NCBI RefSeq assembly: GCF_009914755.1
Contig: NC_060947.1
Source of the DNA: the human T2T-CHM13v2.0 reference genome, Homo sapiens
Length of the DNA stretch: 64,000 nucleotides
Reading direction: 5' to 3' (one strand)
Part shown: piece after piece, positions 26,925 to 39,600 of the stretch
How positions within the stretch are numbered: position 1 is the first letter of the stretch
How the letters are laid out: each line of letters begins with the position of its first letter
Program-made: the position numbers and the translations under genes
The notes under the pieces: model-generated
Databases searched by the model: none
What the model was told of the DNA's origin: nothing
What the model saw: the letters and a program-made list of their open reading frames with translations, nothing else

Positions 26925-29900
26925 TTGTCAAAGATCAGATAGTTGTAGATATGCGGCATTATTTCTGGGGGCTCTGTTCTGTTTCATTGGTCTATATCTC
27001 TGTTTTGGTACCACTACCATGCTGTTTTGGTTACTGTAGCCTTGTAGTATAGTTTGAAGTCAGGTAGCATGATGCCTCCGGCTTTGTTCTTTTGGCTTAG
27101 GATTGACTTGGTGATGCAGGCTCTTTTTTGGTTCCATATGAACTTTAAAGTAGTTTTTTCCAATTCTATGAAGAAAGTCATTGGTAGCTTGATGGGGATG
27201 GCATTGAATCTATAAATTACCTTGGGCATTAAGGCCATTTTCACGATATTGATTCTTCCTACCCATGAGCATGGAATGTTCTTCCATTTGTTTGTATCCT
27301 CTTTTATTTCATTGAGCAGTGGTTTGTAGTTCTCCTTGAAGAGGTCCTTCACATCCCTTGTAAGTTGGATTCCTAGGTATTTTATTCTCTTTGAAGCAAT
27401 TGTGAATGGGAGTTCACTCATGATTTGGCTCTGTTTGTCTGTTATTGGTGTATAAGAATGCTTGTGATTTTTGTACATTGATTTTGTACCCTGAGACTTT
27501 GCTGAAGTTGCTTATCGGCTTAAGGAGATTTTGGGCTGAGACAATGGGATTTTCTAGATATACAGTGATGTGATCTGCAAACAGGGACAATTTGACTTCC
27601 TCTTTTCCTAAATGAATGCCCTTTATTTCCTTCTCCTGCCTCATTGTTCTGGCCAGAACTTCCAACACTAGTTGAATAGGAGTGGTGAGAGAGGGCATCC
27701 CTGTCTTGTGCCAGTTTTCAAAGGGAATGCTTCCAGTTTTTGCCCATTCAGTATGATACTAGCTGTGGGTTTGTCATAGATAGCTCTTATTATTTTGAGA
27801 TATGTCCCGTCATACCTAATTTATTGAGAGTTTTTAGCATGAAGAGGTGTTGAATTTTGTCAAAGGCCTTTTCTGCATCTATTGAGATAATCATGTGGTT
27901 TTTGTCTTTGGTTCTGTTTATATGCTGGATTACATTTATGAATTTGCATATGTTGACAGCCTTGCATCCCAGGGATGAAGCCCACTTGATCATGGTGGAT
28001 AAGCTTTTTGATGTGCTGCTGGATTCGTTTTGCCAGTATTTTATTGAGGATTTTTGCATCAGTGTTCATCAAGGATATTGGTCTACAATTTTCTTTTTTG
28101 GTTGTGTCTCTGCCCGGCTTTGGTATCAGGATGATGCTGGCCTTATAAAATGAGTTAGGGAGGATTCCCTGTTTTTCTATTGATGGGAATAGTTTCAGAA
28201 GGAATGGTACCAGCTCCTTCTTGTACCCCTGGTAGAATTCGGCTGTGAATCCATCTGGTCCTGGACTTTTTTTGGTTGGTAAGCTATTGATTATTGCCAC
28301 AATTTCAGAGCCTGTTATTGGTCTATTCAGAGATTCAACTTCTTCCTGGTTTAGTCTTGGGAGGGTGTATGTGTCGAGGAATTTATCCATTTCTTCTAGA
28401 TTTTCCAGTTTATTTGCATAGAGGTGTTCATAGTATTCTCTGATGGTAGTTTGTATTTCTGTGGGATCGGTGGTGATATCCCCTTTGTCATTTTTTATTG
28501 CATCTATTTGATTCTTCTCTCTTTTCTTCTTTACTAGTCTTGCTAGCGGTCTATCAATTTTGTTGATCTTTTCAAAAAAACAGCTCCTGGATTCATTAAT
28601 TTTTTGAAGGGATTTTTTTTTGTCTCTATTTGCTTCAGTTCTGCTCTGATTTTAGGTATTTCTTGCCTTCTGCCAGCTTTTGAATGTGTTTGCTCTTGCT
28701 TTTCTACTTCTTTTAATTGTGATATTAGGGTGTCAATTTTGGATCCTTCCTCCTTTCTCTTGTGGGCATTTAGTGCTATAAATTTCTCTCTACACACTGC
28801 TTTAAATGTGTCCCAGAGATTCTGGTGTGTTGTGTCTTCGTTCTCATTGGTTTCAAAGAACATCTTTATTTCTGCCTTCATTTTGTTATCTACCCAGTAG
28901 TCATTCAGGAGCAGGTTGTTCAGTTTACATGTAGTTGAACGGTTTTGAGAGCGTTTCTTAATCCTGAGTTCTAGTTTGATTGCACTGTGGTCTCAGAGAC
29001 AGTTTGTTATAATGTCTCTTATTTTGCATTTGCTGAGGATTGCTTTACTTCCAACTATGTGGTCAATTTTGGAACAGGTGTGATGTGGTGCTGAAAAGAA
29101 TGTATATTCTGTTGATTTGGGGTGGAGAGTTCTGTAGGTGTCTATTAGGTGCACTTGGTGCACAGCTGAGTTGAATTCCTGGATATCCTTGTTAACTTTC
29201 TGTCTCATTGATCTGTCTAATGTTGACAGTGGGGTGTTAAAGTCTCCCATTATTATTGTGTGGGATTCTAAGTCTCTTTGTAGGTCACTAAGGACTTGCT
29301 TTATGAATCTGGGTGCTCCTGTATTGGGTGCATATGTATTTAGGATAGTTAGCTCTTCTTGTTGAATTGATCCCTTTTCTATTATGTAATGGTCTTCTTT
29401 GTCTCTTTTGATCTTTGTTGGTTTAAAGTCTGTTTTATCAGAGACTAGGATTGCAACCTCTGCCCTTTTTTGTTTTCCATTTGCTTGGTAGATCTTCCTC
29501 CATCCCTTTATTTTGAGCCTATGTGTATCTCTGCATGTGAGATGGGTTTCGTGAATACAGCACACTGATGGGTCTTGACTCTTTATCCAATTTGCTAGTC
29601 AGTGTCTTTTAATTGGAGCATTTAGCCCATTTACATTTAAAGTTAATATAGTTATTTGTGAATTTGATTCTGTCATTATGATGTTAGCTGGTTATTTTGC
29701 TCGTTAGTTGATGCAGTTTCTGCCTAGCCTTGATGGTCTATACAATTTGGCATGTTTTTGCAGTGGGTGGTACCGGATGTTCCTTTCCATGTTTAGTGCT
29801 TCCTTCAGGAGCTCTTTTAGGGCAGGCCTGGTGGTGACAAAATCTCTCAGCATTTGCTTGTCTGTAAAGTATTTTATTTTTCCTTCACTTATGAAACTTA

Positions 29901-36679: not shown

Positions 36680-39600
36680 TAATTTTTATTTTTTATTTTT
36701 TATTTTTTCTCTTGAACTTCTTTCTTTCTTTTTTATATTATACTTTAAGTTTTAGGGTACATGTGCACAATGTGCAGGTTTGTTACATATTTATACAAGT
36801 GCCATGTTGGTGTGCTGCACCCATTAACTCATCATTTAACATTAGGTATATCTCCTAATGCTATCCTTCCCCTCTCTCCCACCCCACAACAGGCCCCGGT
36901 GTGTGATCTTCCCCTTCCTGTGTCCAAGTGTTCTCATTGCTCAATTCGCACCAATGAGTGAGAACATGCGGTCTTTGGTTTTCTGTCCCTGCGATAGTTT
37001 GCTGAGAATGATGGTTTCCAGCTTCATCCATGTCCCTACAAAGGACATGAACTCATCATTTTTTATGGCTGCATAGTATTCCATGGCGTATATGTGCCAC
37101 ATTTTCTTAATCCAGTCTATCATTGTTGGACATTTGGGTTGGTTCCAAGTCTTCGCTATTGTGAATAGTGCCACAATTAACATACGTGTGCATGTGTCTT
37201 TATAGAAGCATGATTTATAATCCTTTGGGTATATACCCAGTAATGGGTGGCTGTGTCAAATGGTATTTCTAGTTCGAGATCCCTGAGGAATCGCCACACT
37301 GACTTCCACAATGGTTGGACTAGTTTACAATCCCACCAACAGTGTAAAAGTGTTCCTATTTGTCCACATCCTCTCCAGCACCTGTTGTTTCCTGACTTTT
37401 TAATGATCACCATTCTAACTGGTGTGAGATGGTATCTCACTGTGGTTTTGATTTGCATTTCTCTGGTGGCCAGTCATGATGAGCACTTTTTAATGTGTCT
37501 GTTGGCTGCATAAATGTCTTCTTTTGAGAAGTGTCTGTTCATATCCTTTGCCCACTTTTTGATGGGGTTGTTTTTTTCTTGTAAATTTGTTTGAGTTCAT
37601 TGTAGATTCTGGATATTAGCCCTTTGTCAGATGAGTAGATTGCAAAAATTTTCTCCCATTCTGCAGGTTGCCTATTCACTCTGATGGTGGTTTCTTTTGC
37701 TGTGCAGAAGCTCTTTAGTTTAATTAGATCCCATTTGTCAATTTTGGCTTTTGTTGCCATTGCTTTTGGCGTTTTAGACATGAAGTCTTTGCCCATGCCA
37801 TGTCCTGAATGGTATTGCCTAGGTTTTCTTCTAGGATTTTTATGGTTTTAGGTCTAACATGTAAGTCTTTAATCCATCTTGAATTAATTTTCGTATAAGG
37901 TGTAAGGGATCCAGTTTCAGCTTTCTACATATGGCTAGCCAGTTTTCACAGTACCATTTATTAAATAGAGAATCCATTCCCCATTTCTTGTTTTTGTCAG
38001 GTTTGTCAAAGATCAGATAGTTGTAGATGTGTGGCATTATTTCTGAGGGCTCTGTTCTGTTCCATTTGTCTATATCTCTGTTTTGGTACCAGTACCATGC
38101 TGTTTTGGTTACTGTAGCCTTGTAGTATAGTTTGAAGTCAGGTAGCATGATGCCTCCAGCTTTGTTCTTTTGGCTTAGGATTGACTTGGCTATGCGGGCT
38201 GTTTTTTGGTTCCATATGAACTTTAAAGTAGTTTTTTCCAATTCTATGAAGAAAGTCATTGGTAGCTTGATGGGGATGGCATTGAATCTATAAATTACCT
38301 TGGGCATTATGGCCATTTTCATGATATTGATTCTTCCTACCCATGAGCATGGAATGTTCTTCCATTTGTTTGTATCCTCTTTTATTTCATTGAGCAGTGG
38401 TTTGTAGTTCTCCTTGAAGAGGTCCTTCACATCCCTTGTAAGTTGGATTCCTAGGTATTTTATTCTCTTTGAAGCAATTGTGAATGGGAGTTCACTCATG
38501 ATTTGGCTCTGTTTGTCTGTTGTTGGTGTATAAAAATGCTTGTGATTTTTGTACATTGATTTTGTATCCTGAGACTTTGCTGAAGTTGCTTATCAGTTTA
38601 AGGAGATTTTGGGCTGAGACAATGGGATTTTCTAGATATACAATGATGTGATCTGCAAACAGGGACAATTTGACTTCCTCTTTTCCTAAATGAATGCCCT
38701 TTATTTCCTTCTCCTGCCTCATTGTTCTGGCCAGAACTTCCAACACTAGTTGAATAGGAGTGGTGAGAGAGGGCATCCCTGTCTTGTTCCAGTTTTCAAA
38801 GGGAATGCTTCCAGTTTTTGCCCATGCAGTATGATATTGACTGTGGGTTTGTCATAGATAGCTCTTATTATTTTGAGATACGTCCCATCAATACCAAATT
38901 TATTGAGAATTTTTAGCATGAAGCATTGCTGAATTTTGTCAAAGGCCTTTTCTGCATCTATTGAGATAATCATGTGGTTTTTGTCGTTGGTGCTGTTTAT
39001 ATGCTGGATTACGTTTATTGATTTTTGTATGTTGAACCACCCTTGAATCCCAGGGATGAAGCCCACTTGATCATGGTGGATAAGCCTTTTGATGTGCTGT
39101 TGGCTTCGGTTTGCCAGTATTTTATTGAGGATTTTTGCATCAATGTTCATTAGGGATATTGTTCTAAAATTATCTTTTTTGTTGTTGTATCTCTGCCAGG
39201 CTTTGGTATCAGGATGATGCTGGCCTCATAAAATGAGTTAGGGAGGATTGCCTCTTTTTCTATTGATTGGAATTGTTTCAAAAGGAATGGTATCAGCTCC
39301 TCCTTGAACCTCTGGTAGAATTTGGCTGTGAATCTGTCTGTTCCTGGACATTTTTTGGTTTGTAAGCTATTAATTATTGCCTCAATTTCAGATCCTGTTA
39401 TTGTTCTATGCAGAGATTCAACTTCTTCCTGGTTTAGTCTTGGGAGGGTGTATGTGTTGAGGAATTTATCCATTTCTTCTAGATTTTCTAGTTTATTTGC
39501 CTAGAGGTGTTTATAGTATTCTCTGATAGTAGTTTGTATTTCTGTGGGATCGGTAGTGATATCCCCTTTGTCCTTTTTTATTGCATCTATTTGATTCTTC

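What the first reader, a model, noticed from the sequence alone, without database searches (positions are those of the whole stretch)
27160..38790. Two independent L1s 11,078 bp apart share private inactivating mutations, suggesting ectopic gene conversion
Seen: 27414..27698 and 38492..38776 both carry FADH in place of catalytic FADD. Both share a 1-bp deletion (caacacta^gttg versus caacactatgttg in the 1.9-4.2 kb copy) and a 2-bp deletion (ggct^^ctgttt). Both also show ARTMRQ, GIHLG and FFIEL, and further out NTYAP and ENNFQ. Yet their 5'UTR and ORF1 belong to different subfamily stages, and other stretches differ freely. An active source element could not carry these lesions because of L1 cis-preference, so sequence was probably copied locally at the DNA level in patchy tracts.
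Basis: partly seen in the sequence, partly recalled or inferred. Interest (0 to 1): 0.7.

Follow-up and report, generated by a model that had tools for sequence, protein, structure and literature searches.

The report
Neighbouring dead L1s share copied patch
Two separately inserted, dead human LINE-1 copies 11 kb apart share a 500-600-base patch of mutations whose combination occurs nowhere else in the genome, most likely because one copy overwrote the other during DNA repair (gene conversion), a real but known kind of event with no evident function.

Summary
The core observation holds. L1 A (26925-31794) and L1 B (36673-42764), both minus strand at offset 11,078, differ by about 7.6% around the tract but by only 8 of 586 bases in 27124-27709 / 38202-38787. 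There they share 9 rare substitutions and 2 deletions. The 1-bp deletion occurs in 2 places genome-wide (A and B) against 7,343 undeleted matches; the FADH stretch and the left allele pair are also only in A and B. Corrections: the 2-bp deletion (124 copies) and the ENNFQ allele (235 copies) are not private, so the evidence supports one tract, not scattered ones. B is itself a chimera: old-type 3' part, young-type 5' part, switching at 40607-40725. Best explanation: one non-allelic gene conversion after both copies were dead (0.82), at about one third of the elements' age; donor unresolved. Ape orthologues and other human assemblies could not be checked. This is a clean new case of a known process. 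A side signal is more interesting: other rare L1 alleles are shared by near neighbours more than expected, but segmental duplications were not excluded.

The parts
26925..31794 (-). L1 A: full 5' end, lacks 1,266 bases of the 3' end plus poly(A); intermediate/older L1PA type (L1PA4/5-like, name inferred)
27124..27709 (-). Homogenised tract in A, widest bounds; outermost shared rare variants at 27168 and 27670
27570..27581 (-). FADH in place of the reverse-transcriptase FADD motif in A (B: 38648-38659); this stretch matches only A and B genome-wide
27670..27671 (-). Shared 1-bp deletion (B: 38748-38749), puts a stop in ORF2 at once; 2 genome matches against 7,343 undeleted
27428..27431 (-). Shared 2-bp deletion in a CT run (B: about 38506-38509); recurrent, 124 genome matches
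28950..28994 (-). Possible second, older micro-tract (B: 40050-40094): two rare alleles together only in A and B among 34 near matches, but with A/B differences between them; weak
30865..31021 (-). 5'UTR block present in A and absent from B (139 A-only and 7 B-only columns, net 132); inferred to be the 129-bp ZNF93-site block lost in L1PA3
   Evidence: paper passage
36673..42764 (-). L1 B: full length but chimeric; old-type states from the 3' end to 40606, young-type from 40726 to the 5' end
38202..38787 (-). Homogenised tract in B, widest bounds; outermost shared rare variants at 38246 and 38748
40607..40725 (-). Old-to-young switch interval in B
23820..26916 (-). Much older L1 (about 72% identical to A/B) that hosts A, left part; resumes at about 31796 with about 60 bases missing and no target-site duplication
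1851..4231 (-). L1 C, 5'-truncated old-type copy used as local control; lacks the shared lesions

Best explanation
Two L1 copies 11,078 bases apart share a 500-590-base tract of rare mutations, most likely because a non-crossover repair event (non-allelic gene conversion) copied that tract from one already dead copy into the other. Shown: the tract, its bounds, the privacy of the tested variants, the different subfamily states outside it, and single-copy flanks. Inferred: a break or nick in one ORF2 invaded the same-orientation neighbour, copied about 0.5-0.6 kb with the donor's accumulated lesions, and returned without crossover; both copies then diverged again. Timing about 0.31 (0.13-0.56) of the elements' age if one tract, 0.14 (0.03-0.40) if a 76-base patch stayed unconverted; with a recalled age of 18-20 My that is roughly 1-11 My ago. 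Donor unresolved, slight lean to A. B's chimeric 5' part records a separate recombination with a younger L1.
For: 8 of 586 differences against 7.6% in flanks. 9 shared rare substitutions plus 2 deletions; 0 of 1,485 control pairs reach 9. Genome-wide exact matches: 1-bp deletion 2 vs 7,343 undeleted; FADH stretch 2; left pair of alleles together in 2 of 53 near matches. Best other copy is 96% identical to 27380-27720, B is 98% (40 of 3,775 candidates scored). Tract tree: A+B clade support 0.99, distance 0.016; other segments 0.113 and 0.098 and not sisters. A and B differ at six old/young diagnostic sites in 39372-39841, so they are not one duplicated copy. Flank identity at the same offset 29% and 26%; 20 of 4,847 spacer 31-mers repeated. 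Immediate stop at the deletion argues against a source active in cis (cis-preference is established knowledge, not tested).
Against: No ape orthologue or second human assembly was available, so the ancestral state, direction and date are not shown. Sequence alone cannot tell conversion from duplication and re-collapse. 13 of 1,485 control pairs have equal or lower divergence in the tract (they do not share rare alleles, and half the panel was chosen for likeness to the tract). Shared variants cluster (8 of 11 in 122 bases, p 0.006) and so do differences (5 of 8 in 76 bases, p 0.04), uncorrected, so the tract may be more than one event.
Confidence: 0.82

Rival explanations
1. Two reciprocal unequal crossovers: A and B recombined to give a tandem duplication of the 11-kb unit, which later collapsed at a second point, leaving a hybrid tract between the two crossover points.
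For: Gives the same present-day sequence; same-orientation L1 pairs do drive non-allelic crossovers (PMC4344489, abstract and passages); B is already a recombinant.
Against: Needs two rare events with crossover points only about 0.55 kb apart in a 4-kb homology; no trace of a duplicated spacer. A and B are 92-93% identical today, below the 95-96% at which PMC4344489 sees enrichment, though they were closer in the past.
Confidence: 0.08
2. Shared source at the RNA/cDNA level: both elements got the segment from one defective L1 transcript by trans-mobilisation or template switching during insertion.
For: B is a chimera, so mixed origin occurs here.
Against: Needs two double template switches at the same coordinates in neighbours of different subfamily stage; no dispersed progeny carry the variants; the tract lies wholly inside B's old part and not at its switch.
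Confidence: 0.04
3. A third copy, now deleted or unassembled, was the donor for both A and B.
For: If B's chimera came from an L1-L1 deletion, nearby L1 sequence was lost (inference).
Against: No third carrier in the T2T assembly; needs two conversions with like bounds.
Confidence: 0.03
4. Assembly or polishing error moved reads from one copy to the other.
For: Near-identical repeats 11 kb apart; reads not available to me.
Against: The tracts differ at 8 positions spread through them, with rare alleles on both sides; an error would make them identical.
Confidence: 0.02
5. Chance recurrence of hypermutable alleles.
For: True for the 2-bp deletion (124 copies) and ENNFQ (235 copies).
Against: 1-bp deletion 2 of 7,345; 0 of 1,485 pairs share 9; the identity peak itself.
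Confidence: 0.01

Closest known systems
Non-allelic gene conversion between neighbouring Alu copies (Aleshin and Zhi 2010, seen only as described in PMC8230782 and PMC6598467, passages)
   Same: Neighbouring retroelement copies share non-diagnostic mutations; reported range about 10 kb and hotspots on sex chromosomes; this pair is 11 kb apart on X.
   Different: L1 rather than Alu; tract about twice an Alu's length; seen here as one locus with genome-wide privacy counts.
Repair of a break in a LINE by conversion from another LINE in cis or trans (Tremblay 2000, seen only as cited in PMC3055243); intra-chromosomal L1 conversion proposed for locus NCLI34 (PMC1920257 passage)
   Same: L1 segment replaced by sequence from another L1 on the same chromosome.
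   Different: Germline, fixed in this assembly, donor and acceptor adjacent and both dead.
L1 recombination-associated deletion / LINE-LINE NAHR (Han 2008, seen only as cited in PMC3055243; PMC4344489)
   Same: Fits B's old-3'/young-5' chimera with a single switch and no convincing target-site duplication.
   Different: The A/B tract has two switches and no loss or gain of the spacer, so it is a non-crossover outcome. For B, a long conversion by a young L1 is not excluded.
Non-classical, endonuclease-independent L1 insertion (PMC1920257, passages)
   Same: A is 3'-truncated, has no poly(A), no TSD and about 60 bases of target missing.
   Different: A keeps a complete 5' end and has an endonuclease-like site 15 bases beyond it (read from the sequence), so ordinary insertion followed by deletion is as likely.

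Membership tests
Non-allelic gene conversion tract | Local identity well above the flanking paralogue divergence, bounded on both sides | tested here: met
   1.4% vs 5.5% left and 9.5% right; permutation p 0.001
Non-allelic gene conversion tract | Shared derived variants confined to the two paralogues | tested here: met
   not met for the 2-bp deletion and ENNFQ alone
Non-allelic gene conversion tract | Tree incongruence between tract and flanks | tested here: met
Non-allelic gene conversion tract | No copy-number change of the DNA between the copies | tested here: met
   spacer and flanks single-copy in this assembly; a transient duplication cannot be seen
Non-allelic gene conversion tract | One-way transfer shown by outgroup orthologues | not testable with these tools
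   no ape genomes held; internal clues inconclusive
Segmental or tandem duplication | Homology extends into unique flanks and is even along the copy | tested here: not met
Dispersed L1 sub-lineage from one source gene | Variant set carried by several unlinked copies | tested here: not met
L1 recombination-associated deletion (element B) | Chimeric L1 with a single switch between two subfamily types | tested here: met
   old/young states 15/1, 2/2, 23/1 before 40607 and 2/58 after
L1 recombination-associated deletion (element B) | No matching target-site duplications | tested here: inconclusive
   best match 10 bases with 1 mismatch; reached by 6.5% of 1,500 random and 18% of 136 endonuclease-like flanks
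L1 recombination-associated deletion (element B) | Outgroup genome retains two L1s and the intervening DNA | not testable with these tools
   no ape genomes held
L1PA3 (short) for B's 5' part; L1PA4/5 for A | Absence or presence of the 129-bp 5'UTR block; match to subfamily consensus | tested here: inconclusive
   block absent in B, present in A (paper); no subfamily library was available, so names are inferred

The most novel reading that the evidence does not exclude
This pair is one visible case of genome-wide homogenisation between neighbouring L1s that reaches 25-200 kb, well past the 10 kb reported for Alu, and often joins inverted copies. Carriers of one rare L1 allele lay within 200 kb of each other in 5 of 884 pairs (0.28 expected) and within 100 kb in 9 of 4,950 pairs (1.9 expected); 10 of these 14 pairs are inverted. 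If not due to segmental duplications, L1 ages and trees are locally distorted, and rare-allele sharing gives a direct map of non-crossover repair between L1s.
Probability: 0.3. Interest if true: 0.55.

Novelty: new member of a known kind. Interest (0 to 1): 0.32.

Why it matters
As a single locus it matters little: both copies are dead, and no annotated exon or regulatory element lies in the tract. It is a clean, datable example of L1-L1 conversion at 92-93% present identity, at a locus with two more rearrangements (B's chimera, A's lost 3' end). Such events bias divergence-based dating and subfamily calls and can move lesions or intact segments between copies. The counting method (rare allele, genome-wide carriers, distance) could be scaled to measure L1 conversion rates, which my four searches on the topic did not find measured in the held library.

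Tried and rejected
APOBEC-like or otherwise special mutation cluster in the tract: rejected; C>G is 2 of 9 in the tract and 10 of 47 in A's next segment, and 9 near-private alleles is within the range of other copies (1-18). Donor from mutation load: uninformative, A 41 and B 49 near-private alleles in 38788-40300. Donor from diagnostic sites: only 38552 leans to A, but 3 of 11 old-type copies have the same base. Outer tracts: 4 shared rare alleles in 38788-40320 (16 of 1,225 control pairs reach that) and 2 in 40321-41980 (56 of 406), so weak or none. Neighbour signal, negative results: the 2-bp deletion carriers show no excess (1 pair within 200 kb, 2.25 expected, first 100 of 124 listed), and panel neighbours L003/L010 (78 kb apart) share only 1 near-private allele. 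Neighbour pairs could not be fetched, so duplication versus conversion is open. No B-like or further old-type loci could be added to the panel; the young group has only 3 copies 5' of 40323. Locus literature: one search listed nothing on these L1s. Han 2008, Jacobs 2014 and Tremblay 2000 were not held, so their text and supplements (Han's deletion list may include B) were not seen. Earlier scan findings were closed.
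Full report
Anatomy. Self-BLAST of the window shows L1 A (26925-31794) and L1 B (36673-42764), both on the minus strand, aligned at offset 11,078 with 92.8% identity over 3,969 columns. A lacks 1,266 bases of the 3' end and the poly(A) and sits inside a much older L1 that has lost about 60 bases at the junction. A has a net 132-base 5'UTR block that B lacks. I take it to be the 129-bp block deleted in L1PA3 in the great-ape ancestor (bioRxiv 10.1101/429613, passages). 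Subfamily names are inferred; no consensus library was available.

The tract. A global alignment gives 8 substitutions in 27124-27709 (586 bases) against 7.6% in 1,988 flanking columns. The binomial P is 6e-12, for a window picked after the fact; a fairer permutation of difference positions gives p 0.001 for the longest identical run (199 bases) and 0.017 for the second (144); the best 586-column window to the right of the tract has 28 differences.

Privacy of the variants. I projected 57 other loci from the same genome on B and dropped L006 as the same element as L046, leaving 56. Half were selected for likeness to the tract, which works against my reading. A and B share 9 substitutions carried by 0-5 of 55 copies, plus the two deletions. 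Among 1,485 control pairs the mean number shared is 0.13 and the maximum 3; 13 of those pairs are as little diverged in the tract, being young copies. Genome-wide exact counts: 1-bp deletion 2, undeleted form 7,343; FADH stretch 2; the two left-most alleles together in 2 of 53 near matches. The 2-bp deletion has 124 matches and the ENNFQ allele 235, so these two are recurrent.

Not a duplication, not a sub-lineage. In the tract tree A and B are sisters (support 0.99, distance 0.016); in 38788-40600 and 40730-41980 they are not (0.113, 0.098). They differ at six old/young diagnostic sites in 39372-39841. Flanks at the same offset are 29% and 26% identical and the spacer is single-copy. No dispersed carriers exist for the tested sets.

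Outer sharing is weak. Outside the tract there are 6 shared rare alleles in about 4 kb; 16 of 1,225 and 56 of 406 control pairs do as well. Two of them, 44 bases apart (28950, 28994), occur together only in A and B among 34 near matches, with 13 and 11 single carriers; a short older tract is possible. Within the main tract, shared alleles and differences both cluster (p 0.006 and 0.04, uncorrected), so an unconverted 76-base patch at 27444-27519 or two events are possible.

Date and direction. Nine shared substitutions before and 8 differences after put the copying at 0.31 (0.13-0.56) of the element age; with only 3 differences counted, 0.14 (0.03-0.40). Using a recalled age of 18-20 My, that is roughly 1-11 My. 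Direction is unresolved.

At columns where old-type and young-type panel groups differ, B has old/young states 15/1, 2/2 and 23/1 up to 40606 and 2/58 beyond; the switch is in 40607-40725. The groups were defined from the same data and the young group has 3 copies in the 5' part, but they place B's ORF1 with support 0.999. A 10-base TSD-like match is not significant (6.5-18% by chance). An L1-L1 recombination deletion or a long conversion by a young L1 would both fit; old-3'/young-5' polarity does not fit a nascent young cDNA joining an old copy (inference).

Mechanism. Shown: a bounded tract, private variants, separate origins, no copy-number change. Inferred: strand invasion of the same-orientation neighbour 11 kb away, synthesis over 0.5-0.6 kb and release without crossover (0.82). 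Duplication and re-collapse gives the same sequence (0.08). Shared RNA source, a lost third donor, assembly error and chance are each 0.04 or less.

Known context. Conversion between neighbouring Alus within about 10 kb, with sex-chromosome hotspots, is described (PMC6598467 and PMC8230782, passages). LINE-to-LINE conversion repair and 73 human L1 recombination deletions are cited in PMC3055243 (passage); I did not see those originals. An intra-chromosomal L1 conversion is proposed in PMC1920257 (passage). LINE-LINE crossovers are in PMC4344489 (abstract and passages). PMC5640379 and PMC8232201 (passages) added only references. One search on the locus listed nothing relevant. No supplements were read.

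Side signal. Leaving out A and B, carriers of one rare allele lie within 200 kb in 5 of 884 pairs (0.28 expected) and within 100 kb in 9 of 4,950 pairs (1.9 expected; first 100 of 235 listed, close pairs read by eye). The null used the clustering of the first 100 of 7,343 common-allele hits, and distances were chosen after seeing the lists. One search shows no excess (1 vs 2.25), and several pairs may be segmental duplications; I could not fetch them.

Verdict. Real, well supported, a new member of a known kind; interest 0.32.

Noticed in passing
window 36673-42764, switch 40607-40725: L1 B is an old-3'/young-5' chimera without a convincing TSD; candidate L1-L1 recombination deletion or 2.1-kb conversion.
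   Followed up: partly
window 26917-26925 and 31795-31811: L1 A lacks its 3' 1.27 kb; its host L1 lost about 60 bases; an endonuclease-like site lies 15 bases beyond A's 5' end, suggesting normal insertion then deletion. The break is 200 bases from the tract.
   Followed up: partly
G000 C6:50944521/50968794, C6:99565263/99655265, C7:123885391/124038806, C20:4319609/4328090, C11:86593562/86768560, C1:163464180/163470945, C5:88788650/88831019, C7:32826613/32849469 and others: L1 copies carrying the same rare allele are near neighbours more often than expected (not); 10 of 14 pairs inverted. Conversion or segmental duplication.
   Followed up: partly
window 38788-40606: A and B carry more near-private alleles in mid-ORF2 (41 and 49 in 38788-40300) than most panel copies (4-47); B also has a 13-base tandem duplication near 39616.
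   Followed up: no
window 2-430 and 15970-16398: SPIN2B/SPIN2A 5' regions are a direct repeat at offset 15,968, 89.7% identical; known paralogues.
   Followed up: no
window 43923-44613: A short plus-strand L1 3' fragment, inverted relative to A, B and C, 89-90% identical to B and C.
   Followed up: no
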